From: Naegleria gruberi
Taxonomy: Eukaryota
Reading direction: 5' to 3' (one strand)
DNA length: 64,000 nt
Assembly (NCBI GenBank): GCA_000004985.1
Contig: GG738874.1
Both the position numbers and the translations under genes were made by a program. Positions 1 to 47,802 of the stretch are shown piece by piece; the stretch's first letter is position 1; every line of letters begins with the position of its first letter. The notes beneath the pieces were generated by a model. It saw only the letters and a list, made by a program, of their open reading frames with translations, searched no databases and was not told the origin of the DNA.

Positions 1-4
1 TAAA

Positions 5-3000
5 ATGGGCCTCTACGGAAATTGGGTGTGGAAGATATTGAACTATTTAGTGACATTATCTTTGGATGATTTGCCTGATAGTGTCATGTCATATAATGCA
101 ATGATAGGTGTCTCTTCTATTTGTATTACCTTCTCAGTTTTTGGGCTTCTGATATTTTACTACTCTGCCAAACAATTTCAAATTGCTAGCAGGCATATGA
201 AATTTCTTCAATTTATAATGAGAGTTTATGGTTTTTTAACGTTTTTTGCAAGTTTTACTATGGTTTTTATTATGACCTCTTTTATTGATTGTAACTATTC
301 TAGTTCAGTAATTTTTGAAGGATTTGATCAACCACAAATGGTTCTCAATAGATTTCCATCTCAAATGTGCTTCTCTTCTACAAATATTACAATGATTGTT
401 TTGAGCTATGTCGGAATTCTTGCATTAATGTTATTGACATTCATGAGTGTTTTTACTAGAGGAGAGACACATGTAAAAGCAAGTAGTAGCCCCTTTGTTT
501 CAGAGCATGTGCTATTTCAAGTAGCAGTTTTGATAATTACCCAATTACAAATAACCCTTAACTATTCTATCCCTTTTGAATACTCGTACCTGAGAAGTAT
601 ATCTCATATAGTCTTATCACTAATTTTATTACCTATACTATTTTACTATTTACCCTTCTTTAAAAGAGTTGATAATTCAATAATGGTTGGATTATGCCTT
701 GCCAAGTCCTTCCTTGGTGTCGCACCCCTAATTTCTTTTCTTGTAAATACACAAGGAGATTGGGGGATGGGTTTAGGATTTTCTCTTTCTGGATTTGGAT
801 TTATTCTCACTGGTTTCTTGATTGGTTTTATTGTTACGGAAATATATACTAGACTTCTCTACTATAGAGCAAGAAAAATTATTATTACTGCCTTAACAGA
901 ATGTGAGGTTTTGATTATTGATTTTGATGAAAATACTAGTGATGCTGATAGATATCGTAACCTTAGATCACTTTTTGAGAGAGAAGCCTTCTCGTTATTT
1001 AAACTATTCGAAGAGAAGAAAATGATGAGACACTTGTCAATGTTTTTCAAATTTTCAATGGTGTCTGGCAATAAGGGAAACTTGGATGATAGTTTTCTAT
1101 TTTCTGATGTTGATTTAGTTGTATCAATAATCAAATCTGTGGCGCAACAGAAGAACTTTCAAAATTACCCTCAGCTGATCTTAACATCAAGCATAGTCTG
1201 TGCACATTTTTGGGACCCTGAGAAAAATGGATTGGTATCTCATACTCCTCAATCTTCATCGTATGAATACGCAGTTGCTTTACTTAAAAAGATCAAGGCA
1301 AGTCAATTAGGATTTTTGTCTGATTTAGTAATGAAAAGTTTATTGAAACAATACCATACTGCATCACAAAATGAAAGTAGTGGAAAACTATCAGAACTGA
1401 AGGGTATTATTGATATTAAGGAGTTTATTTCAAAGTTAGGAAAGAAAATGGAAGATATAACAGTACAAAGGAAAATATTTTGGAAAGAATTGATGAACGA
1501 TGTTGTAGACTATGGCAAAATAATCAACATTAACAGAACAATTGCAAAATTAACCCTAGAGTGCAACACTACATTTGAAAACTTGATGAGCTATTTCCAT
1601 AGTTATGACAAAAATCTTCTCAGATTATTTGCCAGTTTCAATGAAAAGGTTTTATTCAATCAACAAAGAGCTGATGAGTTGTATCAAGATGCATCCTTGA
1701 TAGAAGATGAAGATTCGAAAAGAATTTCAGAAAAGCAAGCTCTGACATCATCAATCAACAATACCTCAAACAGTAGTCTTCAAAGTCATAGGTTTAAACC
1801 TGGAAATAGAATTTTACCTATAAGAGTAGGAACAAGAGTTAATGTTGACCTTGAAGCCGATTCAAATAGAATATCAGCTAAAATATTCGATGGTTTGGAG
1901 AATGGAGATTTTTCGAAAGAGCTAAACGAAGATCCAACTGCACTCGATCTTGCTGAGGCTGCTGATTCCCCAGAGATTAAAAAGGAAAATTTGATAAGAA
2001 CTGCACTAACAACTCCATTGAAACCTGTTGCCATCTACTTTTCTTACATTTCTTTGATAGGACTAATTATTTTAATGTTTTCTGGAGCTGTTGCACTTTC
2101 ATTATTTACAGTTATTACCTCGACCAAGAACCTTACAGATATTAAGCAATCATGCATTCCAGCATTGGGTTCAGTTCGTTTGATTTCTGATTTAAGAGTA
2201 AACCAGATTTTTAGAACATTATATTCAGGTAATACAACCTTCTCCTCCACTCTACAAAAATTTGGATTTTCTAGTATGAATGATACTGTAAATTACCATA
2301 GAGGAAAAACTTTGGATACCATTGAAAAATTCAAGCATTTAGAAAAATTAGCTTTTAGTGGAAAATGGAGTGCTGAAATGTTTCACGATTATTCAACTGA
2401 CTCTACAGAAATGTACTATCCGGAAATTCCTCACCACAACAAGGAGGGACATTTTATTAATGCTAGACCAAGAAATATGTCTGTTTCTGGTGTTACAAAC
2501 ACTATGATTCAGACTGGAAAAGATTTACTAACCTATTCTGATTCTCAGTATAATGAAACAATAGGTTCTTTTCAGTTTATGTATCTTTGGCACAATAGAG
2601 ATACCTTACCAGATATGTACGGAAAATTCTGTAATACTATTTCGTCTAGATTCTACTTTGGTATTCAAGATATGGAGAGTGTGTATGGGTACTATTTGAC
2701 AGCTATTGCAATTGTGACAGTACTGATATTCATATTTATGATTGCAATGTTCATTTTCCTCAATAGGAAATTAAAAATGATTCTCAAATTGTTTGAGAGA
2801 AACCTTCCCAAAGATGTAATTGGAAAAGTTTTTCATGAAATCAAAGCCGATGATACAGTACATGGATCTTCTAACCATTTATTGCAAAACCCATCACTGA
2901 AGATTTCAATTCTGTTTATGCTACTGCTACTAACATTTTTAATGGCAACTATAGTATGCTTTGTAATTGTGATTTCAACCATTAATAGTGCAAAAGAAAT

Positions 3001-5110
3001 AATTGGAAATATAGATGCTTCAACCAAGATTGCCACCACTTCTCAAAGAGTTTCATTGCATATTGAGGAAATTTATATTTTTGGTATTTTGCAAACAAAT
3101 ATGTATCCCATCAACAATGAGGAATTACTCACCCCTGAACAAATTTTTGAATATCACGAAGGAATGGATCAGTTAACAATTGACTTGGATGAACTTTGGA
3201 ATCGCCTTCTGTATGGTGATATTAATACTGGAGATGCTGTTCTTGTTGGATTATATCCTGAAATAGACAAGATTATTGAGGGTTACAACTGCACCAATAA
3301 TACATCAGCCAATTGTGGAGAAAGTTTGAACGACTTGCTAAACAACCTCATACTCAAAGCAACCAAGATTAATGAAATTTATGTTGCCCTTGATAAGAAT
3401 GAGAGAATAATATTTGATGAATTTTTTTCTACAATTTACATGATTAGCAATAGAGTGACAGATTCAATGCTTAATTTCATTGATATCTATGTCTCCAGTG
3501 TTCAACGTAACGATTCCTATGTTATAGTAATTCTGTTTGGAATAGGTGGCCTTTTCATAATGCCAGTTTTGTTGATCTATATTTTGAACGTTCTTTCTGG
3601 TCAATTGAATGAAATTTACTCATTACGTCTCATTTTGAACTATGTGAACATTGATATACTTGAATCAAAGGAACAACTGAGAAACTTTATTCTTCACAAC
3701 AATCTGTCACGAGAAAAGAAAAAGAAAAATCAAGTTTCTAATAATGTAGAAGAGGACAAGGTCAGAAATATTCTAAATGCCTCTGTCGAAGGTTGTTTAT
3801 TATGTAATCATAATTATGAAATTGAAATATACAATCCAGCAGCTCAAAGGTTTGTTTTTTCTACTTTACTATTTATCTAAAACAAAATTTTAAAGAATGT
3901 TTATGAAACAAGTTAATGAAGTTATTGGATTGCCAATGTGGACTCTATTTGAAAAGAATTGCCAGGATAGAATCAAACTCATCCTTCAAAATCTAACAAA
4001 AACTACTGGTAGTATTGCAAATGGTGAAACAGCAGAACTCGATGGACTAAGAAAAAATGGAACTCTCTTCCCAGCACGTGTTAATATATTTTGGACAATG
4101 TTCGATTCTAAACCAGTATTCACTTGTTTCATTAAGGATGTAACAACAGAGAAAAAGCAAAATGCACTGTTGGCCGAAGAGAAGAAGAGATCTGAAAATC
4201 TTCTCAGAAATATTTTACCAGAATCTGTAGCAAACAAATTGAAGAATGGAGATACATTCATTGCAGAAAAACTACCAGATATTACATGTTTCTTCTCAGA
4301 TATGGTTGGGTTTACTACCATATCTAGTCATTTGAATGCTAATGAGATTGTTAAAATGTTGAGCTCCATAGTCAGTGGATTTGATAAGTTAACAGATAAG
4401 TATGAATTGGAAAAGATTAAAACAATTGGAGACAGTTATTTCTGCGTTGGAGGATTACATCAAGCGAGTGACCACCCTGAGAGAGTAGTTAGATTTGCTA
4501 TTGAAACCTTTGGAGTGGTTAGGGATTATAACAATTCACTATTTAAGGATACAGATCCCCAATCTGTTTCTCAAATAGATATTAGAATTGGTATTAATAC
4601 TGGTTCAGTTGTTGCTGGAGTTATTGGTATTAAGAAGTTTGCATATGTAAGTTAGAAATTTAGTTATTCTATTAATTGATTCCTGTTAATTTAACAAAAT
4701 AGGATTTATGGGGTGATACTATTAATGTTGCTTCGAGAATGGAAAGTAATTCTAAACCTGGCCGAATCCAAGTTTCCAGATCAACCTATGAAAGAGTTCA
4801 CGATCTAGGATTTGAATTTGAGGAAAGATCAATTGAAGTGAAAGGAAAAGGAGTAATGAGGGCCTATCTTATCCACGAAAAACACCACACAAGTGCCACA
4901 TTGACCAACAAGGATATTGAAATAGTTACGGGAGATACACAGTACTTTGCAAGTCCTTTATCTGGTAGTGAATCACCCCTTCCACCAGCCTCTAGCTCCA
5001 ACCCACCCTCAATTAAATCATCACCCAATAATAGTGAATCTAAGAGAGAAGCTATTGATCCAATGGCTTATGATCGTTTAGCAACATTTACTATTGGACA
5101 AAAGGACTAG
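5..5110 (+). CDS. Receptor-type adenylate/guanylate cyclase, copy 1. Multi-TM N-terminal region, extracellular region, TM, PAS domain, class III cyclase catalytic domain. Exons 5..3849, 3896..4646, 4703..5110. Probably 5'-partial at the window edge.
   Basis: A 1291-aa ORF is joined in frame to ORFs 3897..4655 and 4739..5110 by two GT-AG introns: 3850..3895 (gtttgt...aaag) and 4647..4702 (gtaagt...atag). The junctions reproduce the continuous paralog sequence at 42934..47802 (NPAAQR|MF... and KFAY|DLWGDTIN). Cyclase motifs: FFSDMVGFT, KIKTIGDSYF, GDTINVASRMES. PAS motif: NASVEGCLLCNHNYEIEIYNPAAQR. Stop TAG at 5108-5110. Confidence 0.8.
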
Positions 5111-5114
5111 AGCT

Positions 5115-6770
5115 TTATTTCAGTAAACCAGCATATTCATTTCTCTTCTCTAGTCTCAATTTGTAGTACAATCCTGCAATTGTAACACCAACACCACATA
5201 ACAAACCTATTGCCAGAATAACAACAATTGCAATAATTACACCAGTTGAATTATCACTGGCATAGTACTTGTCATAAACTGCTTGTACTTCGCTATTGAC
5301 TTGGTTTCTATATTTTCCAATCTTATTTACATTCTTGTCAGGATAAACTCTATTGGTCAAAAAGATTGTGAATAAATTTCTTTCTGGATCTCCACAAACT
5401 TGAGTACCAGAAAATCCTAAATGCAAGAATGTTTTCTTTGAGAGACTTCCACATGATCCATTTCCTTCAGCATTGGTATCCCTGTAATAATTAATTATTC
5501 GAATTAGTTCAGTTTTTTAACTTACCATCCTAAAGCTCTAGAGCTTTGTTGAGTGTTCTTGACAGATGTAAAAAGTGAGAAAGTTGTTGAATCAATGAAA
5601 TTTTCCCTTCTTCTGAACATTAATTCGTCCATAAAATTGTAAACATCTGGCAATGTTGAAAAAATTCCAGCCTTAAAGTGTTAATTATTTAACATGATTA
5701 TTGTCAACTTACATGTCCTGAAATACCGCCCTGTGCATAACAATTTTCATCAGAAACATATCCCTGAATCAAATCATGATGATAAACCTCGTCAAGCCAA
5801 GCAGGTGGAATATTTACATCATATCTATTTGGAATGTATCCACTATTTGACATTCCAAGTTGTTCCAAAACATGTTTCCTCACAAATGCTTCAAAATAGC
5901 AAGTTTCATGACCAGGAGCATTCAATCCAATTTGTGATACGCAATCACTTCTCAAATCATCATTTGAAATTTGCAACAGATTCATATTCTTTTTAACAAT
6001 TTGTCCAATAATATACATGAGTGAAATCATAGACAAATCACTATAGACATATTTTTCACCTATAATTATTTCTCAGTCACCCAACAAATAATATTTAACA
6101 TACCTATATTGTGAGCCAACTTTTCATTCAACCAAGAATTAAAAATCTTATTCGAACAAGTAAACACTTGTGGTGGATGATAAATCTCCGTAGCACTACA
6201 ATTAAACTCAACAGTATTATAGGTAGGATTTGGATCTGGAGCCAACCCTGAATTGTGCAATAATAAATTCTCAATAGTAATTCCACTCTTTCCATTCACT
6301 CCAAATTCAGGAAAATACTTTACAACACTATCATGCAATGAAATCAAATCCTTCTGATACAACAAGGCAACTGCTGATGTGGTCGAAATTACCTTGGTCA
6401 CCGATGCCATATCAAATTTGGTCGTATTTGTATTCATCACTCGTTGTTCATCATCATTGTAAGTAAACTTTCCAAAGGCTTTAGAATAAATTGGACCATC
6501 CTTATTGGCCACTAAAAGAACAGCACCCGGAAAAGCCTTCTCAGCAATGCCACTATTTATAATATTCTCCAGATTGTCCCAACGATGATCATTTGTTTGA
6601 CCATTCACTTCATTGAAAGTAATAAAAAGTATCAACATCATAATCATCATGAATATTTTCCTTGTCATCATCATGTTGTCGATGGAACGACAAGTGCTGC
6701 AAGAGGATCCGATTCGATTTTTGATGCTTCCTTTTAATGATGAAGAATGCAAGGATGGCAATTTGGGCAT
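5115..6770 (-). CDS. Beta-lactamase-related serine hydrolase (PBP/class C beta-lactamase fold, esterase/LACTB-like) with an N-terminal signal peptide and a C-terminal TM segment. Exons 6770(or 6674)..6104, 6059..5713, 5671..5526, 5481..5115.
   Basis: SxxK motif FDMASVTKV. Y-x-N-like motif GEKYVYSD, recovered across the 44-bp intron 6060..6103 (gtatgt...tatag). YAQGGISGH is followed by intron 5672..5712 (gtaagt...ttaag). A 146-nt middle exon is followed by intron 5482..5525 (gtaagt...ttacag). The final exon carries HLGFSGTQVCGDPE. Exon lengths keep the frame (667/347/146/367 nt). There are two candidate ATGs: 6770 (MPKLP...) and 6674 (MMMTRKIF..., signal-peptide-like). Confidence 0.72.
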
Positions 6771-6867: not shown

Positions 6868-8611
6868 TTAGAGATTGGATTGAAGTTGGAGGATAACAGT
6901 CTTGAGGGAAGTCCATGCCTTCATTCCCTCTTCTCCTGCTTCTCTACCAAAACCAGATTGTTTAACACCACCAAATTCGGCAACATGCAAAACATTGTGA
7001 TAATTATTGATCCAACAAACTCCACATTTGATTCTGTCAGAGAAGGTGAACATATTGTCAACATTCTTAGTGAGAATGGCAGCTGCCAAACCAAATTCAG
7101 TATTATTACATCTGGTGATAACTTCATCGAGAGTCTTCCATGGCTTCAGAATAGATTGAACTGGACCAAAGATTTCTTCTCTAGCAATACGCATATTATC
7201 ATCAACCTTATTTAAATTGAACAGAGAAAAACAAGTTAAATTATTGTGTGTTAGAATTGAGATAATTGTCAAAATAAACTTACATCATAGAAAATTGTTG
7301 GCTTGACGAAATAACCCTTAGTAGGTAAACCTTCAGAATCACCACCAATTAATAATTTAGCACCTTCCTTTTTACCAATTTCAATATAGCTCTTAACTCT
7401 GTCATATTGTTCCTTGTCAACCAATGGTCCAATATTAGTTTCATCATTCAAATTGTATCCAATCTTGAAAGTGGCGACATGTTCCTTGAGCTTTCTAACA
7501 AATTCATCATAGATATCAGCATGAACAAATGTTCTACTTCCAGCAGTACAAGCTTCACCATTATTATTGAAAATACTGAAAGCAGCAACCTTAACAGCTT
7601 CATCAACATTGACATCAGGACAAACAACAACAGGTGATTTACCACCGAGTTCCAAATGGACTTGTTTCAAATTAGATTCGGCAGCTCCCTTCATGACAAG
7701 ACGACCAACTTCAGTAGATCCTGTGAATGCAATCTTACTGACCTTCTTGTGACTGACGAGTGGAGCACCAGCATTTGGACCATCACCCATAACAACATTG
7801 TAAACACCCTTTGGAATACCAACCTTTTGACAAATGTCAGCAAGTTTGAGTGCAGTCAATGGAGTTTGTTCAGATGGCTTCAAAATGACACAGTTACCCA
7901 TAGCCATAGCAGGAGCAACATTAACCAATGAACACCACATTGGGAAGTTCCATGGAGAAATAACTAGACAAACGACTCAATTATTAAATTCTAATAATGC
8001 TACCTACCACCAACAACACCAACTGGGCTTCTTTGAGTATAAACGTGGAATTTCTTATCAGTAACACAAATTCTTCCACTCAATTTATCAATCCATCCAG
8101 CACTATATCTCCAAGTATCGGTAATACTCTACATTTCCACAAAATAATAATTAATTTTAAATTGTCATATATCCACAAAAACATTCCACAAAATAATTAA
8201 TTGAAATTAATTATATCAATACTACTCCGCATCACATCATCAACCTACTTTAATAACATAACGGTTAACTCCGATAGGTGTACCATTATTAAGTCCTTCC
8301 AACAAGGCCATTTCCTCAACTTGTCTATCCCATTCATCAGCAAGTTTATAAATAAGTTCTTGTCTCTTTTGTGGTTCCATATTTCCCCATTCTCCATTCA
8401 ATGCTTCTTCAGCAGCTTGAACAGCCAATTCAACATCTTGTGCACAACCATCACTAACACTACACAAAACTTGTTCCGTAGCTGGACAAATCAAGTCCAA
8501 CTTTTTTCCGCTCTTACTCTCCACAAATTCACCATTGATGAATTGTTTGAGTTGGGAAGGTTTGATGGCTTCAAATTGCTTCAAAACTTGTACGTGGGAA
8601 ATGTTGCTCAT
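6868..8611 (-). CDS. Aldehyde dehydrogenase (ALDH1/2-like, NAD-dependent). Exons 8611..8249, 8128..8008, 7963..7284, 7206..6868.
   Basis: N-terminus KQFINGEFVESKSGKK...INPATEQV. Motifs ITDTWRYSAGWIDK, ISPWNFPMW, FTGSTEVG, ELGGKSP, GEACTAGSR, EEIFGPV, GLAAAILT, EFGGVKQSGFGRE. Introns 8129..8248 (gtaggt...tgtag), 7964..8007 (gtaggt...ctag) and 7207..7283 (gtaagt...aaataag). All junctions restore the ALDH consensus and the exon lengths keep the frame. Confidence 0.85.
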
Positions 8612-9973: not shown

Positions 9974-12900
9974 TTACTTGAATACTTTTACAATTTGAGT
10001 TATTGGTTTTCTACAGGTAGGACATGATTTGTTAGTGAGCTTGTTGGCACAGCCATCACACATTATCATGTGACCACATGGAACCAAAACTACATTAATC
10101 TCCTTATCCATACAAACGATGCAGTGATTATTTTCTTCTTGCTGCTCGTGGTGATGATCAGTAGGTGTGGTGATTTGAGAAATATTGGCTGGTTCTGGAA
10201 TTCTTTCTTCCTCTGCAAGCCAATCTCTATTAGTAAAGATGGATGGGTCCTCTGTTTGGATTCTTGAATTGGATGGAGTTATTCCACTATTAGAAGAAGA
10301 GGATTGATTGTTGTTGTTTGATTGACCTGTGTGTTTTTTTCTAGTTTGTACAATTTCTCTCTTTCTCTCACCGGCAAGGAATGCAGTTCTGTTTGACTTT
10401 TTCATTCTGTAGAGAAGTGAAGAGAGTTTGTCTGTTTCTCTCATTGATGAATCATTTTCACATTGTCTCAAATCTTCATCTAGGTCTTGAGTATTGTTTA
10501 CAAATGCATTCATTTCTTCTTGCTGACCGTATGACTTGGAGACTTCTTCCAAGAGTTTGTTCATACTCAAAAGTTTCAATCTGGCATCTCTAATTTTGCC
10601 ACTTTCAGCAAGAATGGAGCTTTGTAAAACTGCATTTAAGGACAATACAGAAACATCTACATTTTCTAAGGAAACACTTCTGTCAGATGTAATCTTAACT
10701 GGTTGATTAACCACTCTCACATATTTGCATCCGTTTGATGAGGCAGTATAGTAAATTTGTGCTTGAATCAATCCCTTATCCTTCTTATCATCTTTTACTT
10801 CCATTTCAATGGTAACATCTGTCTCAGCTGTTGCACTGCTAATTGATTGAGTAACCATTGAATACTTATCCAATTTAGATACCTCCTGATTCTTTGGTGA
10901 TATTGGATTGGAGAAGAGCATTTGTACTTTAACATCGGTTGCAATAACTGGATTATCAATAATTTGTCTCATTTGCCTTCTTAATTCAACTGGTTTTACA
11001 ATGTTTGTCAAACCTCCAGTATTATCAGCGAGCTTTCCAATTAATGACAAGTTACAGTTTGAGCCCTCAACACCAAAAACATTAATATTAATGCCATACT
11101 CGCAGGATAAGTTTGCAATCTTTGTGCAACACTCTTCTTGATCCTTGATACTTTTAGCTCTCTTTGAAATTTCCTCACTAATACCAGCCAAACCTGTTGT
11201 TGCAACTCCGTCAGTGCACAGGATAATTTTGCTACCTTTTTGCTGACTTGCAATACCCAAACTAACAAGTAAGGCAGGGAACAGTGCTGTAGCACCATCT
11301 TCTGCAATTGAGTAAATATACTCAATCAAATTATCATTGGCAAGTGAAACATTGTTTAGAATAGAGGTTCTATAAGATTGTCCTAACTTGAACAATCCTT
11401 CGAAATTATCAAGTAACACAGCTGGGACACTAGCTCTAGTTTGTGATCTGGCGTCACCAATAATTTGCACATTGCTTGAGAAGGTAACAATGGCTATTCT
11501 CTTATTGGGAGATTCTCTAGCTGTTTCAGTAACTTGAATATCTAGAGCCATCTTGAGACAGTCCATTCTAGAAACATAGGATGAAGATCGACTTTCGTTT
11601 GGAAGAAATTGATTATGAACAGAAACTTCAGATTCTAATCCCAATTCTCTCAGTAAACGTCTATTCTTTTCTTGTTGGTCGGATTGTCTCAAATCCAAAT
11701 TAAGAACAGAGTAGCTTGGTAATTGCTCAGATTGACACATACTGCCAGAGATATCAATACAAAAAACTAGTAAGCCGTCATCATCATTTACAGAACTCTC
11801 TTCCAACTTGTGTTCAATCATTTCTGGAATGGATGAAACATTGGAAGGTAATACATTTTCAGTATCGCAAAATGAGCATTTCCAATGATTTCTCTTTTTT
11901 TCACCATTTAACGCAGCTTTACAATTTGAACAGGTAACAAGAGGGCCTAGAGCTTTTGGACATTCTGCTAAAAGGCCATTCATACACAAGGCAGCAACAT
12001 TGGCATCAGATTTTGGATGTTTGATAGTTTGTTCGTTTGAAAGATCAATAGAGGATGAACAAGCTTGTGAAACTGTTGAGGCAGTCTTTTTTTCACTCTT
12101 CTTGAAAAGTCTCGATAAGAAACCTCCTCCACTAGACTTTTTTTTGCTTGTGGAAGATGATACTGAGCTACTTTGGGCATCATCGAGAGGAACATTTGAA
12201 ACAACTATTTGTTTTCTATAAGAATCCTCCTAATAACATTTGTTTGAAACATGATATTCAAAGAAATTCACTTACACTATAATAATAACATTCAGTAATA
12301 TTCAAAGAAGCAACTTACATTGTTGGGTCGTATTGTTCTACGAACACATTTTGAATGAATTGTGTGCAATAAGCACTTTTTCCTACACCACCAGAGCCAA
12401 CAATAGAAAATCTGTATTCATCCAATCTTCCACACATTCTTACTAGTTCATGAATAGGTTCGTCTACATTAATCCTTTGTTTGGCACTTGTTTCAAAATA
12501 AGGAATGCCCAAACGAAGTGCAACTTCCTTAACTTGTTGTTTTGACACTATTCTCTCCTCTTCCAAATCACTCTTGTTTGCAATAAGTACACAAGGAAAT
12601 GAATCAACATCCTTTGTCCTCAAAATTTGTTCCCAAATAGTTTGACAATCTTCCAACGAACTTGAATCTGTTATCGAAAAAACAATAAGAAAACCATATG
12701 ATGTTCTATAGTATTGATCTCTCAAACTACTATATTCTATTGTTGAGTGAGTGCAAAGAGGTTAGCACACTTGTTAATAATGAGAGACAACAAAAACCAA
12801 CCTTCTTGTCCAGCAGTATCGAGTAAATCAATTAAAGCTACATGATCGGAGCCTCCAGTAGTATTACTTTCACCACCAACAGAAGAATATCCAAGCTGTT

Positions 12901-21301: not shown

Positions 21302-24300
21302 CTATGCCAACAATGATCTTCTCTCATCACTTGTTGAAGTCTTATCATAAGACTTTTGGAGAGCATGTTTCGAATTCTTATCCGAATTCATTCTTTCTCT
21401 CACTTTTTGGATACCGAGATTGGATCTGAGTTGTTTGTAAGGCTTCCACTTTCTCTTTTCTCTTTGAAGAAGCTTTTCTAAAATTCTACCAAACCAAGAC
21501 TTATCGTTAGCACATGTAATGGCTTTGATAAAACGTAAAATGTTGTAAATTGTAAAACCTTTGATTAATTGTCTGAAAGGAATTCTCCAAATTAAGAACA
21601 TCTCCCAAAAGTATCCAATAAAGTAGTGAGCTGCACAATATCCAAAGAGACGTAATTTGAATTCCATTGGGAAACTAATAAATTGGAATGCTGTTTTTAA
21701 ATAATGGCATGGTTCAAATAATATGTAAGTGGTAAACAAGTACAATATAGTAAGGAGCAAGACATAGATAAAGTTGTGAGTTATGAGAGGTCTCTTAAAT
21801 GGCTCACTAACACTCTGACTGACAGCTGAATTCAATACTGCAAAGCAACATGCAAGGTATGTAATAGTTGTTTCAAAACTAACAATATTGTCTTTTGGAT
21901 CTTTGTGAAGTGGAGCAGGTTTGTACCATGCTGTATCGAATAAAATTTCAAAGAAAACTCCCAACATTAAAGCAAATCCCCAGAAAATTTGACCAAGCAA
22001 ACTAACAAGAACAAATCTAGAGAAGAGAGATTCTGGTGGTTTTTCCTTATGGAGAGTTTCTGTGGCTTTGGAATTGGCCATCAATAGAACAACAGGTAAA
22101 ATAATGAACATGTCAATATACAAGTATTGTGTGTCACCAATTGTTGCATTTTGTCTATAGATGAGAACGGCCGCAAAGAATTCAAACAAGCTATACAAGG
22201 CCATGTACTTGAACATTTGGAAACTGGAAGAGAGTGCAGCTCTTCCTTCCTTAACTACATCCACAACTGATCGAATTGAATTTTGAACTGATGTAAAAGG
22301 TGCAGCAATACTTGCTTCGGCCTCTGAAAGAGAAACACCCACATGTGCTGCTTTCAAAGCCTCAACATCGTTACTGCCATCTCCACACATTACAGTCATG
22401 TAGCCCATCTTGATCAACTCTTCTACCACCTTCATTTTACCAGAAGGTGAAACTCTAGCATAGATATGGCAACATGAAAGAATAATATGGAGCAATGAAG
22501 GATTCTCAGCATCAACATACTCAATCTTATTTCCTCTTCCCATCTTGGCATTTTCATTGGTCTTTTCCACATAATCCTTGTGTGAGAAAACGATTGTGTC
22601 AAAAATCTCACCAATAATTGCCAATTCAAAGTTTTCATTTCTAAAGTCCTTTCTGATAATTTCACGTGAGGTAAGGGTAGGGGCTTTTGGATCATCAACA
22701 TTTCTCCAAATAATCTTATCATAAACTGCAGGGAGATAATGTTTCATAGGATTGCCTAGTATTGCATTATCGTTAATATCCTCATTGATTGATGGACCAT
22801 TGGTAGTTTGCACATGGTTGATGGCAAGTGCTTCCTTGCTTGCAAATTCAGCCAAATAAAGAGTCTTTCCCTTTGGAAGCATATAACATTTACGAGCAAC
22901 ACAAATTGTCGTGTATGGATTATCGCCAGTAATGACACACGCTCTCAAGTTAGCTTGGGTTAGTGTTCTAATCACAGATGGTGTTTCTGGTTTAAGTTTG
23001 TTTTCCATGCAAATTAAACCAAGGAAATCCAGTTTAGATTCAACTTCCTCTCTTGTGAGCTGGTCAGTATATTTGGCAATAAGAGGATCCACCAAGTTTC
23101 TTCCAAAAGATTCAGGTTTTTCTAGAATTTTTAACAATTCCTTATACTTGATAACTCTGCTGGCACATCCTAGAACACGATAACCCTTATGTGCATACTT
23201 GTAGAGAACCTTTTCAAAATCACCTGGAATTGTTTGAGCATGTGAGAGAGTCTTGAGCATTTCAGCGGAACCCTTAACGAAAAAGTGCAAATCTCCAGTA
23301 TTTTCGTTTTGTGCTACCACTGACATTCTTTGCAAACCAGATTTGAAATCAAAAATCTTGAGGATGATAAATGATGCAGTCTTTTGTGGTGCAGAGATGG
23401 TAATAGAGTTGGTAGACGATGCTTTCTTGTTATTTTGATTGGTACTAGCTTTATCTGATTCGACCAAATCCCAGGTTGTGGCTTCGAATAATTTAACGTC
23501 CAAAGGATCACCTGAATTAAAGTATTATTAATTTGAATTACAATTCGATTTAAAAAAACTTACCCACTAGCTTTCCAAAAACATATGACAAATTGTGACA
23601 ACAAGCCATACAATGAAGTAATGAATTGGTGGCATGCTTTAAATGATTCAACATTTCATTATCCTTAATCAAGTGTTCGAATCCCTTTGGTCCTATTGGA
23701 ACAACGCCATGCAAATCAAGACCATCTCTGGTTAGTGTATTTGTCTTATCGAAACATGCCATATTGACACGCCCACTGACATTAATTCTTGGAGGACTGA
23801 TTATTTGAGTGAATTCAACAAGCAGCGTGTAATAACTTACCTGATACAAAATATTCCCTTTTTCTTGAGTCTAGAAATAGCCATAGAAACACAAACACTC
23901 ATTGAAATAGGCAATGCAGGAGGTACAATAGTAGTTAATAAATCAAAACAAGAAATGATCATTTCACCCAATGGAGCATTCTTAACACTTTGATTGTACA
24001 AACTGTACGAAATACCAGCAATACCAAACAAGAACATCATGAATAAGAATTTCATAGAGTCACTGTAAAAAGAAAATTGGTTTGGCTTGGGATACAAAAT
24101 TGACAAGACCAATTTTCCTTTTGCTGTTTGAAAACCAGTTTGAATAACCATGGCACAAACAATCTCCTCTTCTGAGGATTCATAGAGAGCTGTTGGCTTA
24201 TTCAAAATTACTTGAGTACCAGAGAAGAGAGTATGAGTCTTATCGCGCATACAATTGTACTTTTCTGTTTCAGTTCCAGATTTTGGTATTGGAACTTTCT

Positions 24301-42290: not shown

Positions 42291-45200
42291 ATGAATCCAA
42301 CCCCATCCTCATCATCGATGACACCTCACAATATTCATCATACAGCCAATAACAGTGGTGGTGGAAGTAGTAGCACACCAATAACATCAATTGGTGGAGG
42401 AGGTAATAATAATGGTGTTTTTCCATTTCTGATGAGTAGTAATTCAAATTCAAGTTACAGCAACAGCAATACGAATAATAATTGTACAAAGAATGGCCAA
42501 CAACAACAGGGAGTAGTGGTGACGAATAGTGGACAATTTCACTCCCTATCCAGTATTAATTCAATTCATTTGACTCAAAATCTTCCTCAACAAACACCTC
42601 TTTCTCCCCGAATAACAAATAATAGTAATCATCGCGAACAATTGCAATTAACAGCTGCTCTTCATACCAGTACAGTATTTTCACCATCAAGTGTTACCGA
42701 GAAGACTCATGATGGTGACAATTCTTCGATATTTAATGGATCTGCCTCGAGCACAGTTCTCTCAAAATCAGCATTCAACACTGTTGTCAATAAGGTAAAA
42801 AATCATTTCATGAGTTTTACCTTATTCATGCAAGATAATGAAAAGAAACAGAGCAAAATGGATAGAATTATGATGTTTGGAATGTATATGTATATGATAT
42901 GGGTAGGAATATGGATTTCAACATTGAGTCCTTATGATTATCATTATGGAGAGTGGGGATCATGGTTCTTTGCAGTTGTGTTATGTGGTTGTTTTCCTGT
43001 CGTGTCCAATGAGTTTTGCCATGTCCACCTTTATAGATTGCAAGTGGATCAATATGGAAGGGTTTTCTCAAACCTCCTCTACACGAATGATTCTGAATAG
43101 ATTCAATACATTTTTTCAGGAGGAGAGATATTGCTATACGAGTACCAATATTGTCTTTCTAGTGATATTTCTGGTCACACATTTTCTGTTATCACTAATT
43201 TGTGCCTTCTCCACAACTGTCCTCTCCAATTCCCACCCACTCTCAAAAACTGTTTTTGTTGCAGATGCTAGTTTTGTTCCTGCCTTAATGTTTATGAGTA
43301 ACTTGATGGAGATTTTATTTCACTTTATTATTCCATCTAATTATGCATTTGTGAGATCGATCATTCACATAATCATGGCCTTAATATTTATAATATTCCT
43401 CTTTAAAAACATTACATATATGAGGAGAACAGACAATTCGATAATATCAGGATTTGGATTTGCCAAGTTGGGAGCAAGTGTTGGAAAGCTGATATCATTC
43501 TTTGTTAATAGAGATAATGTCAATAATACTCAAAATTACAACACGTATGGAATTATCATGACATGTGTGACAATAGGATTGGTAATATTTGGGTTTATTA
43601 TAGGGTTCATTGTAATGGAAATTTACACCAGATATATTGTTTATACCATACGTAAGGTATTGGAGAATATTATTATGCTAGCTGATAGATCTCAGTACTA
43701 CGAGCAAAGTAATGATGATTTGGATATGCAAGATAATCAAGAGAGTCAAATCATTGTTTATGAGAAAATAATTGAGAGGGAAGCACCAATGTTATACCAC
43801 AAAATTGACTCTGAAAAGAGAATGAAATTTCTGGTATATTATTTGAACTTTTGTATGCATAGGAATGTCGATGAGTTGATGAATAGCTCTCACCCCTCCG
43901 CCCATAAGAAGGTTTCCAGAATTGAATCAATTGGAATGACAGATACACATGTCGCTTTATGCTTTATCAAGGGTCTTTTTGGAGGTTCTACTTCGATTGT
44001 TACAAATGTCGGCCTCATGTTAACTTGTAGCTCACTTGTTGCTTACTACTGGCCTTCTTCAGCAGAGTCAGTTAACACAACATTATTTGCAAATAGCTTG
44101 TTAAGAAAAGCTCTCAAAAAGCAGCCATCATTTATTCAAAGATTCTTGATAGGTATCAAGATTAAGGAAATTGAGGTGAACGCTGATGAGAAAACTCGAC
44201 TCATGTTTGAGGCGAAACATCTGGTGTCAAAGTTAGAAAGAAGACAACAAGAGTTGAAAGCTCTTCATAGAAATTTCTGGAAAGAACTAACCCATGAAGT
44301 GGTCAATTATGAAAAAATTGAATCAATCATATTAAGGGCAAGTGAATTATCAAGTAAATGCGAAACTCACTACGAAAACCTCAGGCTTACATACCGTCAT
44401 GATAAATCACTATTGAGATCACATGCCCAATTCCTTGAGACCTGTAGATTTGATCCAGATATTGCTCACGAAATGTACAACGAAGCAAGCCTTATGGAGG
44501 AAGAAGATTCTGCCAACCATGCAATGAAATCCAAAAGTAACTTGATGGCAACGGTCAATATTGCAGAAAGAAGGAAAATGTGGAGGGATCAAGCAAAAAA
44601 CAGACCTAACAATAGAGGAATGGCTAATGGAAATGTGAAAGTGGTTCCAGTGAATGGAAATAAGGATATGGTAAGAGGTGATTCCACAAGCTCCATCGAG
44701 GGAAAAGAGGGACAAGAAGAATATGGACACCACTTTGAAATGATAGACCCAAGAACATCGCTCAGTTATTCAGATCAGTTACCATTCGATGGTGTTGAAA
44801 ACTTTGGAAATGTGCGAAAGGAAACAATATTTAGAACTTCACTTTCTGTACCTCACAGACACACTTTTCAACTTGGTGGATTTATTGCTTTCTTTATCTT
44901 GTCTGTATGTCTTTTAATATCTTCATCCATTCTGAGTGGTCTGATATCCTATGAGGTTACGGATGATTTACAAATTGTAAAGACAGGATGCATTCCAACT
45001 TCCTCTATAGTTCAAATGATTACAAAATTGAGATCCCTCAAGTTTGCTAATAGTCTTTACTCTCAAAAATCTTGGCCCACTGAAATGACATCGCTTGGGT
45101 TTAAAAACTTGACCGATTTCAATACCAAGATGTGGACAGATTTTAAACAATATTATTCATATTTTATTGCTCTAAGAGATATGAGTATGAAAGATAGAGT

Positions 45201-47802
45201 CCTAACACCAACCATGTATGATGAGTTCCATGAAAGATACTACCCAATGCTGACACCTGAAATATCATCTGGAAGCGAAATTATATTATACAATTCTACC
45301 AAGGCAGTCAATATTTCAATTGCTGATATTACCAACTTGGTAATCAAGTACTCTGAAGACTTGATAAGAACTCGTGATTCAGATCATACGTTTACTAATT
45401 ATGGCTTTATGTTCTTTTATGATAACCATGATTACATTACCAAAGCTTTTAGCCAATTTTGCTCTGTTCTTATTGATGAATCCAAACATGAAGCTTCACA
45501 GGTAGATATCGCTTATATGGCCTTCCTTATTGTAGCCCTTGTGGTTTATCTTCTCTACGGAACTGGTTATATCATTTACACTCACATTTCCCTTAAATTT
45601 GTCAAGTCACAAATCAAACTCATTGAGCATGAAATTTCTAAAAACATAGCTGGTCGTTTATTCCATGATTTAGAAAAGAAAGTGAGTGATGACGTAACTG
45701 TTCGTCTTCCAAAATCCAAGTTATTGAGACCAAAGAATATCATTATCATGCTGAGTATTTCATTAATGATTTTAATGGCCGTATGTGCTGGATTGCTTTA
45801 CTTTGGAAATAGATACAATGCAGAAAAGATTGCTTCCTCTTTTATTTCATTTAGACATGCCACAAACAGTATGTTTTATGTCCAGAGAATAGCCTTTGCT
45901 GTCACTGAACAATTTACAAATAAGGTTTTGGGAGGTTCATTGCAATCAAGTGAAGAACTATATTTAATGAACCAAGATTTAGAGGAGAATGTTCAAAGTC
46001 TGAGAGAGAACTGGAATTTGTGTTTATACGGTGACTCAAAAGAAGTTTATACCTCCATAATGAATAGAGGAATTTTAGGCCTGTTTTCTGAAGTAGATAA
46101 TCTAATAATTGGAGAATCTAACTGTACATTCTCAGAATTCAGGTATTCATATAATGTTTCTTCAAAATGTTTCCTTAGTTTGAATTCTCTCCTCACCGAT
46201 TACATGTCTTTGTCTACTCAGTTCAACAGTGTGTTAAAAGTCAAAAATATCAATAGCAGTGACATGGACATTGTGGATCAGTATGCTCAAGCTACATTCC
46301 TCTCCAATATGATAACAATGGATGTAGTCGAGATTTCCTCTGTAATTTCAGAAAATTACTCTAACCCAGCTTTTGAAATATTGATCACTTTCTCTATTGT
46401 TGGATCTGTGTCCATTTTGCTATTCTCGTACTTGATACATTTGTATCTTACAAAATATTGGAATTCCATTCAAGAAATGAGATTATATTTCAATTATATC
46501 AGTGTGGAAACACTTGATTCAAATGAAGCATTGAGAAATTATTGTATCCACCATTTGGTTAATGACACCTTCTTGCTAAAGAGGAGAAATATGAACAATA
46601 CATCCCTTCAAGATTCCAAAGTGAGAAGCTTATTGAACGCTTCAGTAGATGGTGCAGTCATGTGTTCTGGGCAAACCTGTGATATTGATATTTTCAATCC
46701 TGCTGCTCAAAGAATGTTTGGTTACAATCAAACTGAAACTGTGGGAAGGCCACTTTTTGATTTGTTTGATTCGTTGAGTCAGCAATCTATTAGGAAAATG
46801 GTATCAGATATGCTTCAAGGGGCTTCTGAAGCTCAATCAAAAGGAGATGCTCTCGATGCTGAATGTGTAAGAAAGAATCAAACAACTTTCCCTGCAAGAG
46901 CCAATATTTTCCTAACCAAACATGATAACAAACCAATCATTACCATATTTATCAAGGATATAACATCAGAGAAGAAACATTTAGCCCTCATTGCTGAAGA
47001 AAAGAAGCACTCTGAAGAACTGTTATTGAACATTTTGCCTGATGCTGTGGCTTCTAAACTCAAATCTGGTGAAACATTTATTGCAGAAAAGTTTGCTGAT
47101 ATCACTTGCTTCTTTTCTGACATGGTAAACTTTACAAGAATTAGTTCTGACATGAATCCTTCTGAGCTAGTTTTGATGTTGAATTTTATTGTAAATGGTT
47201 TTGATGAATTGATAACCAAGTATAATTTAGAAAAGATCAAGACCATTGGTGATGCTTATTTTGCTGTTGGAGGTCTTCATGGTCTGAATGCACAATCAGA
47301 TCACCCCGAAAGAACTCTTAAATTTGCAATTGATACCTACCAAGTTGTCTCCAATTATAATTCCAAGAGTGGAAAACCAATGAGAGAACAAATTAACATT
47401 AGAATTGGAATGCACACTGGAAGTGTTGTGGCAGGAGTTATTGGAAAACTCAAGTTCGCTTACGATTTATGGGGAGATACTATCAACATGGCATCAAGAA
47501 TGGAATCGAATTCAGTGAATGGAAGGATTCAAATTAGTAGAACGACCTATGAAAGAGTGTATGATCTTGGTTTTTCATTTGAAGAGAGAACGATCAATGT
47601 TAAGGGAAAGGGAGAAACTTTAGCTTATTTGTTAGATTCCAAACATCATACCTCAGCTATTGTTAATCATGAGGTGATTGAAGACAGTGAGGAGATTGAA
47701 TCGGTTGTCTTACCTCCAAGGGACACTCTTGAAGTTATTCCACTGAGAGAATCAGCTTCCAATCACACAGACCTTGTAGATTTAGCTCCCTCCACTCCTT
47801 AA
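42291..47802 (+). CDS. Receptor-type adenylate/guanylate cyclase, copy 2 (paralog of 5..5110). N/S/Q-rich N-terminus, multi-TM region, PAS domain, cyclase domain. No introns at the positions where copy 1 has them. There is an apparent +1 frameshift near 42950.
   Basis: A 1622-aa ORF (42934..47802) with PAS motif NASVDGAVMCSGQTCDIDIFNPAAQRMFGY and cyclase motifs FFSDMVNFT, KIKTIGDAYF, GDTINMASRMES. About 65% identity to copy 1 across the catalytic domain. The upstream ORF 42291..43100 (frame 0, true ATG) ends in TM-like sequence (MIWVGIWIST) that resembles copy 1's MIGVSSICIT. It overlaps the main ORF (frame 1) around 42934-42960. Confidence 0.75.

What the first reader, a model, noticed from the sequence alone, without database searches (positions are those of the whole stretch)
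5..5110. Paralogous PAS-cyclase genes differ in intron content (two introns in copy 1, none at the same sites in copy 2 at 42291-47802)
Copy 1 needs introns at 3850..3895 (inside the PAS domain, after AAQR) and at 4647..4702 (inside the cyclase domain, after KFAY). Copy 2 reads through the homologous codons with no interruption (NPAAQRMFGY and KLKFAYDLWGD). Both junctions in copy 1 were located purely by alignment to copy 2 and have canonical GT..AG ends. This is a clean case of intron gain or loss between dispersed paralogs (about 65% amino-acid identity, 38 kb apart, same strand). The intronless state of copy 2 could reflect retroposition.
Basis: seen in the sequence. Interest (0 to 1): 0.5.

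Follow-up and report, generated by a model that had tools for sequence, protein, structure and literature searches.

The report
Two short introns private to one Naegleria cyclase gene
One of two distantly related PAS-cyclase genes of the amoeba Naegleria gruberi carries two small, real-looking spliceosomal introns that no sampled relative has, which points to ordinary lineage-specific intron gain and not to the other gene being a retrocopy.

Summary
Copy 1 (window 2..5110, cut by the window's 5' edge) reads as a PAS + class III cyclase protein only if 3850..3895 (46 nt, phase 2) and 4647..4702 (56 nt, phase 0) are removed. Both are GT..AG, 17-20% GC, not multiples of three, and hit stops on read-through. 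Excision restores a gap-free alignment. An independent contig (99.3% identical) carries both, and its differences in exons 2+3 are 10 synonymous to 1 non-synonymous in the spliced frame. Copy 2 reads through both sites.

The window is Naegleria gruberi. The copies are ancient paralogs: 33% identity overall, 59% in the PAS-cyclase part, not 65%. Copy 1 groups with N. fowleri and N. lovaniensis genes (bootstrap 100), which lack both introns but have others elsewhere. Eight sampled relatives lack both introns in their genomic DNA, and in the PAS-cyclase part seven different positions occur, shared only between orthologs. Gain in the N. gruberi copy 1 lineage is the most parsimonious reading. Copy 2 shows no retrogene hallmarks. 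Its stated span, 42291-47802, is not one ORF: there is a frame break near 42975 and about 60 residues are missing. No transcript evidence was available. This is ordinary intron turnover and of low interest.

The parts
2..3849 (+). Copy 1, exon 1. It is incomplete: the gene runs off the 5' edge of the window, and the ATG at 5 is internal. It encodes the multi-pass membrane region, TPR_TmcB and the start of PAS.
   Evidence: Open frame from base 2. 'KMGLYG' aligns to about residue 113 of the N. lovaniensis and N. fowleri orthologs. Pfam TPR_TmcB and PAS_9.
3850..3895 (+). Copy 1 intron A: 46 nt, phase 2 inside the Arg1282 codon (AG|A), GTTTGT...AAAG, GC 17%.
   Evidence: Read-through hits a stop, the length is not a multiple of 3, and excision restores a gap-free alignment. 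Identical in the independent contig L004. GC.
3896..4646 (+). Copy 1 exon 2: rest of PAS, the linker, and most of the cyclase domain.
   Evidence: ORF and Pfam. 6 synonymous and 0 non-synonymous differences from L004 in the spliced frame. Equals the ENA ORF P0013.
4647..4702 (+). Copy 1 intron B: 56 nt, phase 0 between Tyr1532 and Asp1533 (KFAY|DLWG), GTAAGT...ATAG, GC 20%.
   Evidence: Read-through hits a stop (KFAYVS*), the length is not a multiple of 3, and excision restores KFAYDLWGDTINVASRMES. Identical in L004.
4703..5110 (+). Copy 1 exon 3: end of the cyclase domain, the C-terminal tail and the stop codon.
   Evidence: 4 synonymous and 1 non-synonymous difference from L004.
42291..43100 (+). 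Copy 2, upstream ORF in frame 0. It has a low-complexity N-terminus followed by the first membrane segment, and is homologous to relatives up to ...YHYGEWGSWFF.
   Evidence: blastp against the N-termini of P0004 and P0001-3 gives E = 1e-7 to 6e-5.
42960..42990 (+). Copy 2 frame break, frame 0 to frame 1. About 60 residues (roughly two membrane helices) are missing relative to all relatives. No plausible intron bridges it.
   Evidence: Alignment. Every GT..AG candidate that would fix the frame has exon-like GC (29-46%), and apart from a few of 34-61 nt within the overlap of the two frames they would remove conserved coding sequence.
42934..47802 (+). Copy 2, long uninterrupted ORF in frame 1 (1622 codons): membrane region, TPR_TmcB, PAS and cyclase. 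The public N. gruberi model P0007 covers only 43675..47799.
   Evidence: 100% identity over 1375 aa.
46711..46714 (+). Site in copy 2 homologous to intron A (CAAAG^AATG, junction between 46712 and 46713). Uninterrupted.
47461..47466 (+). Site in copy 2 homologous to intron B (TAC^GAT, junction between 47463 and 47464). Uninterrupted.

Best explanation
Copy 1 is a functional Naegleria gruberi membrane PAS-adenylate/guanylate cyclase gene. It is the N. gruberi ortholog of N. fowleri FDP41_003313 and of N. lovaniensis C9374_012303 and C9374_011659. Its transcript must lose two short U2-type GT-AG introns to be translated: 46 nt, phase 2, in the PAS domain, and 56 nt, phase 0, in the cyclase domain. 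That much is shown from sequence, apart from splicing itself, which is inferred. The inferred history is that both introns were inserted in the N. gruberi copy 1 lineage after it split from the N. fowleri/N. lovaniensis lineage. That lineage independently acquired introns at two other positions of the same gene. The uninterrupted state of copy 2 at these sites is therefore simply the ancestral state of the family and not the result of retroposition. The insertion mechanism is unknown, because no trace of a donor sequence is visible.
For: The introns look real. They have GT..AG ends, lengths that are not multiples of 3, stops on read-through, and their excision restores the frame and alignment exactly. 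Their GC is 17% and 20% against 33% in exons. A heuristic scan finds other putative introns in the window with the same size and 5' consensus. Both introns are identical in an independent 99.3%-identical metagenome contig. That contig's 32 coding differences are 22 synonymous to 10 non-synonymous in the spliced frame, and 10 to 1 in exons 2+3, with P = 1.8e-6 and 9e-9 against neutrality.

Orthology. Copy 1 groups with Nfow P0003 and Nlov P0001/P0002 at 100% bootstrap, and copy 2 with N. gruberi P0015 at 99%. Full-length identity is 46-48% to the orthologs and 33% to copy 2.

Both introns are private to copy 1. Neither site is interrupted in copy 2, Nlov P0001 and P0002, Nfow P0003, the Nlov paralog L006, Willaertia L007, the Naegleria-like contig L005 or the single-exon Acrasis kona gene L008. 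Uninterrupted ORFs called on environmental contigs also read through one or both sites: P0016, P0017, P0018, P0024, P0026, P0028 and P0031.

Intron positions differ between family members. In about 330 codons there are seven positions: A, Y, W, B', B, Z' and Z. They are shared only between orthologs (Y, plus X in the membrane part, in Nlov and Nfow). An all-loss history would need an ancestor with about 7 introns per kb in an intron-poor lineage.

The PAS-cyclase module is about 40% identical to cyanobacterial proteins of the same architecture, which is compatible with an intron-free ancestor.
Against: No transcript evidence could be obtained, and no spliced product of copy 1 is in the protein database. 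Only 8 relatives were examined at the DNA level, out of a family that papers put at 81 to more than 100 members. DNA of the other N. gruberi paralogs, including P0014 (the nearest N. gruberi relative of copy 1) and P0015 (the nearest of copy 2), could not be retrieved. Parsimony can mislead if intron loss is much more frequent than gain. Neither intron shows a trace of a gain mechanism, meaning no repeat family and no duplicated flank. Two near-intron pairs (B and B' 9 nt apart, Z and Z' 4 nt apart) could instead reflect old introns that slid.
Confidence: 0.6

Rival explanations
1. Both introns are ancestral to the family, or at least to the copy 1 clade. They were lost precisely in copy 2, in the N. 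fowleri/N. lovaniensis orthologs and in the other sampled paralogs, for example by recombination with reverse-transcribed mRNA.
For: Intron loss is generally thought to dominate in intron-poor protists, and N. gruberi retains many positions shared with other supergroups (PMC3174169). Introns lie close to site B in L005 (9 nt upstream) and close to each other at Z and Z', so old introns may have slid. Only a small part of the family was sampled.
Against: It requires at least 4 interleaved losses between orthologs: N. gruberi keeping A and B while losing X and Y, and Nfow/Nlov doing the reverse. It also requires independent losses in every other lineage sampled. No position is shared between non-orthologous members. 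The single-exon A. kona outgroup gene lacks them all.
Confidence: 0.3
2. Copy 2 is a processed retrocopy of an intron-bearing cyclase gene, which explains its lack of introns.
For: A 4.9-kb ORF without any recognisable intron.
Against: There is no poly(A) remnant after the stop. The next gene converges about 80 nt downstream. Flanking direct repeats are no longer than chance. Copy 2 is only 33% identical to copy 1, and its nearest relative in the tree is a different N. gruberi gene. Most genes of this genome are expected to be intron-poor anyway, and all relatives lack these two introns. At this divergence any hallmarks would have eroded, so the idea cannot be shown.
Confidence: 0.05
3. Copy 1 is a pseudogene, and the two segments are insertions that disrupt the frame rather than spliced introns.
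For: No transcript evidence was found, and no N. gruberi protein model for copy 1 was found in the database.
Against: Canonical GT..AG at both segments, with excision restoring the frame and conserved motifs exactly. There is a strong excess of synonymous differences in exons 2 and 3 in the spliced frames between two isolates. There are no other stops in 5 kb.
Confidence: 0.04

Closest known systems
Lineage-specific presence/absence of spliceosomal introns between paralogs and orthologs (ordinary intron gain and loss)
   Same: Short GT-AG introns at positions not shared by homologous genes. Coding sequence is precisely continuous at the empty sites. Orthologs in sister species share their own introns (Y and X in N. 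fowleri and N. lovaniensis).
   Different: Nothing in kind. The local detail is the density of different positions: seven in about 330 codons across eight genes, with two near-intron pairs, in an intron-poor heterolobosean.
Naegleria membrane PAS-adenylate/guanylate cyclase family (N. fowleri FDP41_003313; N. lovaniensis C9374_012303 and C9374_011659; N. gruberi 'predicted proteins' P0004, P0007, P0014, P0015)
   Same: Same architecture: multi-pass membrane region + TPR_TmcB + PAS_9 + Guanylate_cyc. Copy 1 is colinear with these proteins over about 1600 residues.
   Different: No public N. gruberi protein model for copy 1 was found in the database. The public model for copy 2 (P0007) is truncated to 1375 aa.
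Processed retrogenes
   Same: Copy 2 is a long ORF without recognisable introns.
   Different: It has no poly(A) tail, no target-site duplication and no close parent. The intron-free state at the two sites is shared by the whole sampled family.
Introner-like elements (intron-generating repeats described in some algae and fungi; recalled from my own knowledge, not tested against a reference set)
   Same: They would produce recent, lineage-specific short introns.
   Different: The two introns show no similarity to each other or to anything else in the 64-kb window beyond chance 9-12-mers. A genome-wide test was not possible.

Membership tests
U2-type spliceosomal intron | GT at the 5' end and AG at the 3' end | tested here: met
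   GTTTGT...AAAG and GTAAGT...ATAG.
U2-type spliceosomal intron | Removal restores the reading frame and homology to uninterrupted relatives without a gap | tested here: met
   The spliced CDS is 5004 nt with no internal stop. The alignment is gap-free across both junctions with 5 relatives.
U2-type spliceosomal intron | Non-coding character: stops on read-through, length not constrained to multiples of 3, and composition unlike exons | tested here: met
   Stops on read-through and lengths of 46 and 56 nt. GC 17% and 20% against 33%. Similar to other putative introns in the window.
U2-type spliceosomal intron | Branch-point motif upstream of the 3' splice site | tested here: inconclusive
   CTAAA and TTAAC-like motifs lie 10-20 nt upstream of the AG, but no Naegleria consensus was available to score against.
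U2-type spliceosomal intron | Absent from mature mRNA | not testable with these tools
   No transcript data. No spliced product of copy 1 is in the protein database. Indirect support comes from purifying selection downstream in the spliced frames.
Processed retrogene (copy 2) | Poly(A) tract at the 3' end of the copy | tested here: not met
   Only an AAAAA about 100 nt downstream of the stop, in the region of the converging minus-strand ORF.
Processed retrogene (copy 2) | Flanking target-site duplications | tested here: not met
   The longest shared word between the flanks is 7 nt. The mean in shuffles is 8.2 and the maximum 12.
Processed retrogene (copy 2) | Identifiable intron-bearing parent gene that is its closest relative | tested here: not met
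   Copy 1 is 33% identical and sits in a different clade. The nearest relative of copy 2 is N. gruberi P0015. The gene structure of P0015 could not be retrieved.
Introner / repeat-derived intron | Many similar copies of the intron sequence elsewhere in the genome | tested here: inconclusive
   None in the 64-kb window. The whole genome was not searchable.
PAS-domain class III adenylate/guanylate cyclase | PAS domain followed by the Guanylate_cyc catalytic domain, above Pfam gathering scores | tested here: met
   Copy 1: PAS_9 65 bits, Guanylate_cyc 179 bits. Copy 2: 56.5 and 174.5 bits.

The most novel reading that the evidence does not exclude
The cyclase family of Naegleria and its relatives is a hot spot of recent, recurrent intron insertion. 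Every intron in the PAS-cyclase module (seven positions in about 330 codons, including two pairs only 4 and 9 nt apart) was gained independently after the paralogs or species diverged, in a module that may have entered heteroloboseans without introns. Introns A and B of copy 1 would then be among the youngest datable intron gains in an excavate.
Probability: 0.35. Interest if true: 0.4.

Novelty: new member of a known kind. Interest (0 to 1): 0.2.

Why it matters
It matters mostly for annotation. No public protein model was found for copy 1, a full-size PAS-cyclase gene of N. gruberi. The public model for copy 2 is truncated, and copy 2 carries a frame break in its membrane region. For intron evolution, the family offers a compact test case for gain versus loss in an intron-poor free-living excavate: many paralogs, several sequenced species, and intron positions that differ between nearly every pair of non-orthologous members. 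The phenomenon itself, paralogs that differ in intron content, is commonplace.

Tried and rejected
1. Introner or repeat origin. blastn-short of both introns against the window and against each other found only chance 9-12-mers.

2. Tandem-duplication origin. Neither intron is similar to its flanking exons.

3. Retrogene hallmarks of copy 2. No poly(A) and no target-site duplication.

4. A missed intron in copy 2. A scan for AT-rich GT[AT][AT]GT..AG segments bridging open frames finds the two copy 1 introns and six other candidates in the window, but none in copy 2. An exhaustive list of GT..AG pairs that could repair the frame break near 42975 contains only candidates with exon-like GC (29-46%), nearly all of which would delete conserved coding sequence. 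The break is therefore not a normal intron.

5. DNA of other N. gruberi paralogs. P0004 and P0007 are 'not on record', so N. gruberi gene structures outside the window could not be surveyed.

6. Transcript-derived proteins. None was found for copy 1 in two database searches.

7. Apparent extra 'introns'. The breaks in L005 (about 1300), L006 (about 7840) and L007 (about 7912) turned out to be 1-nt frameshifts, not introns.

8. The Cell 2010 N. gruberi genome paper is not held, so genome-wide intron statistics are not cited.
Full report
**What the window is.** The sequence has about 34% GC. The long ORF of copy 2 is 100% identical over 1375 residues to an NCBI 'predicted protein [Naegleria gruberi]' (P0007). 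The window is therefore N. gruberi nuclear DNA. Both genes have the architecture membrane region + TPR_TmcB + PAS_9 + Guanylate_cyc. This is the membrane PAS-cyclase family that is expanded in Naegleria; PMC9928731 counts at least 81 cyclases in the genus.

**Checking the observation.**
- In copy 1 the frame open from base 2 ends in a stop shortly after ...NPAAQR. A second frame is open from 3896 to a stop just after ...KKFAY, and a third carries DLWGDTINVASRMES... to the stop at 5108-5110.
- Removing 3850..3895 (46 nt, GTTTGT...AAAG, phase 2 in Arg1282) and 4647..4702 (56 nt, GTAAGT...ATAG, phase 0 between Tyr1532 and Asp1533) gives a 5004-nt CDS with no internal stop.
- That CDS aligns without any gap across both junctions to copy 2 and to four Naegleria proteins.
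- The segments have 17% and 20% GC against 33% in the exons.
- A heuristic scan for AT-rich GT..AG segments that bridge open frames recovers exactly these two. It also finds six other candidates of 44-103 nt with GTAAGT or GTATGT starts elsewhere in the window, so their size and consensus look typical for this genome.
- Copy 2 reads through both homologous sites.

**Independent support that the introns are real and the gene is functional.**
- A 4801-nt contig from an unrelated ENA metagenome (L004, ERZ929261) matches window 498..5298 at 99.31%, with 33 substitutions and no indel. Both introns are present and identical.
- In the spliced reading frame the 32 coding differences are 22 synonymous and 10 non-synonymous. 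In exons 2 and 3, whose frames are only reached by splicing, they are 10 synonymous and 1 non-synonymous.
- About 21% of random changes would be synonymous, so this gives P = 9e-9 and P = 1.8e-6.
- The exons downstream of each intron are therefore under purifying selection in the frames that splicing produces. This argues against a pseudogene with insertions.
- Direct transcript evidence was not obtainable. No spliced copy 1 product exists in the protein database.

**Corrections to the description.**
- Copy 1 and copy 2 are 33% identical over their full length and 59% over the PAS-cyclase part, not about 65%.
- The ATG at base 5 is not the start. 'KMGLYG' aligns to about residue 113 of the orthologs, so copy 1 is cut by the window edge.
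- Copy 2 is not one ORF from 42291. The frame-0 ORF 42291..43100 is homologous to the N-terminal membrane segment of relatives up to ...YHYGEWGSWFF (E = 1e-7 to 6e-5). Homology then continues in frame 1 from ...VVVFLSCPMSFAMSTFIDC, and about 60 residues present in all relatives are missing.
- No GT..AG pair that would repair this looks like an intron. All have exon-like GC of 29-46%, and nearly all would remove conserved coding sequence. It is best read as an out-of-frame deletion or an assembly fault. The public model avoids it by starting at 43675.

**What the two genes are to each other.**
- A neighbour-joining tree of the PAS-cyclase part puts copy 1 with N. fowleri P0003 and N. lovaniensis P0001/P0002 (bootstrap 100), with N. 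gruberi P0014 as their sister (97). It puts copy 2 with N. gruberi P0015 (99).
- Full-length identities agree: 46-48% to the orthologs and 32-35% to the other clade.
- The duplication that separates the copies is therefore older than the divergence of these Naegleria species. The right comparison for polarity is the orthologs and the wider family.

**Intron map of the family.** I located introns in genomic DNA of the relatives. Positions are given in copy 1 numbering.

| Label | Position | Phase | Found in | Length (nt) |
|---|---|---|---|---|
| X | ...KMTR^LT in the membrane part | 2 | Nlov P0001, Nlov P0002, Nfow P0003 | not measured |
| A | Arg1282 | 2 | N. gruberi copy 1 only | 46 |
| Y | KLKN\|GETF | 0 | Nlov P0001, Nlov P0002, Nfow P0003 | 173, 177, 73 |
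| W | FFS-D^MVGF | 1 | Willaertia magna L007 | 46 |
| B' | GTKK\|FAY | 0 | Naegleria-like contig L005 | 54 |
| B | KFAY\|DLWG | 0 | N. gruberi copy 1 only | 56 |
| Z' | ASR^MES | 2 | N. lovaniensis paralog L006 | 134 |
| Z | ASRM\|ES | 0 | N. lovaniensis P0001 only | 89 |

- Copy 2 and the Acrasis kona gene (L008, single exon) have no intron in this part.
- ORFs called on environmental contigs also run uninterrupted through A (P0028, P0017, P0018) or B (P0016, P0017, P0018, P0024, P0026, P0031).
- Positions are shared only between orthologs.
- B and B' are 9 nt apart and Z and Z' are 4 nt apart, but the paired intron sequences are not visibly similar on inspection.

**Interpretation.**
- The fewest events are needed if A and B were inserted in the N. 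gruberi copy 1 lineage, and X and Y in the N. fowleri/N. lovaniensis lineage. That is four gains between the orthologs.
- If all four were ancestral, each lineage would have lost an interleaved pair, and every other sampled lineage would have lost all of them.
- Extended to the family, a loss-only history needs an ancestor with about 7 introns per kb in a lineage of moderate to low intron density (PMC3174169).
- The PAS-cyclase module is about 40% identical to cyanobacterial PAS-cyclases of the same layout. [quoted passage not shown]
- I put gain at about 0.6 and ancestral presence with multiple losses at about 0.3. The main weakness is sampling: 8 relatives at DNA level. DNA of the other N. 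gruberi paralogs was not retrievable.
- No gain mechanism is visible. The introns match nothing else in the window, and they match neither each other nor their flanks.

**Retroposition.**
- Copy 2 has no poly(A) tract after its stop. A converging gene ends about 80 nt downstream.
- No flanking direct repeat exceeds chance.
- No close intron-bearing parent was found.
- Every sampled relative also lacks A and B, so the empty sites need no special explanation. The idea is not supported, and at this divergence it could hardly be shown.

**Verdict.** This is a correct observation of two genuine-looking short introns. They are private to one gene of an ancient paralog pair in a sequenced organism, and are most simply explained by ordinary lineage-specific intron gain. 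It is a new instance of a well-known kind. Its value lies mainly in annotation: a copy 1 with no protein model found, and a truncated and possibly damaged copy 2. It also offers a small, tractable case for studying intron turnover in Heterolobosea.

Noticed in passing
window 1-20: Copy 1 runs off the 5' edge of the window. The ATG at 5 is internal: 'KMGLYG' aligns to about residue 113 of the N. lovaniensis and N. fowleri orthologs, so roughly 110 N-terminal residues are missing.
   Followed up: yes
window 42900-43100: Copy 2 changes from frame 0 to frame 1 near 42975 and lacks about 60 residues (about two membrane helices) that all relatives have. No plausible intron bridges the break. It is probably an out-of-frame deletion (an N-terminally truncated or decaying gene) or an assembly fault.
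   Followed up: partly
window 2-5110: No N. gruberi protein model for copy 1 turned up in the protein database. Only a prokaryote-style ORF of exon 2 from an ENA metagenome (P0013) matches at 100%. The gene may be unannotated in the public proteome.
   Followed up: partly
window 43675-47802: The public N. gruberi model for copy 2 (P0007, 1375 aa) starts at an internal Met and omits the whole membrane region that the ORF encodes from 42934.
   Followed up: yes
L004 (ENA ERZ929261 contig k127_67272) = window 498-5298: A metagenome contains DNA 99.3% identical to this N. gruberi locus, with 33 substitutions and no indels. A close N. gruberi strain was therefore present in that sample.
   Followed up: partly
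L006 about 7840 (N. lovaniensis); L007 about 7912 (Willaertia magna); L005 about 1300: Single-base frameshifts in related cyclase genes. In L006 and L007 the frameshift, or the adjacent intron, coincides with a split of the public annotation into a PAS-containing model and a separate cyclase-only model of about 210 aa. These may be assembly errors or pseudogenes.
   Followed up: partly
L005 1921-1974 versus window 4647-4702; L001 8318-8406 versus L006 8360-8493: Two 'near-intron pairs' in the cyclase domain of different family members, 9 nt and 4 nt apart, with no visible sequence similarity between the paired introns. They could be independent insertions at preferred sites or intron sliding.
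   Followed up: partly
window 3780-4900 and 46640-47650 (PAS-cyclase modules): The PAS-cyclase module is about 40% identical over about 335 residues to cyanobacterial PAS-adenylate cyclases of the same layout (for example Allocoleopsis, Okeania, Dapis). Thousands of bacterial hits score better than most eukaryotic ones. A possible bacterial origin of the module was not tested.
   Followed up: no
window 28044-28091 (+), 60085-60128 (-), 23512-23563 (-), 12216-12318 (-), 7207-7283 (-), 6060-6103 (-): Other putative short AT-rich GT..AG introns (44-103 nt) that bridge long open frames in neighbouring genes. They come from a heuristic scan and are not verified by homology.
   Followed up: no
window 42291-42790: The upstream ORF of copy 2 begins with about 165 residues of low-complexity Ser/Asn/Gly/Gln-rich sequence that has no counterpart in the relatives.
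   Followed up: no
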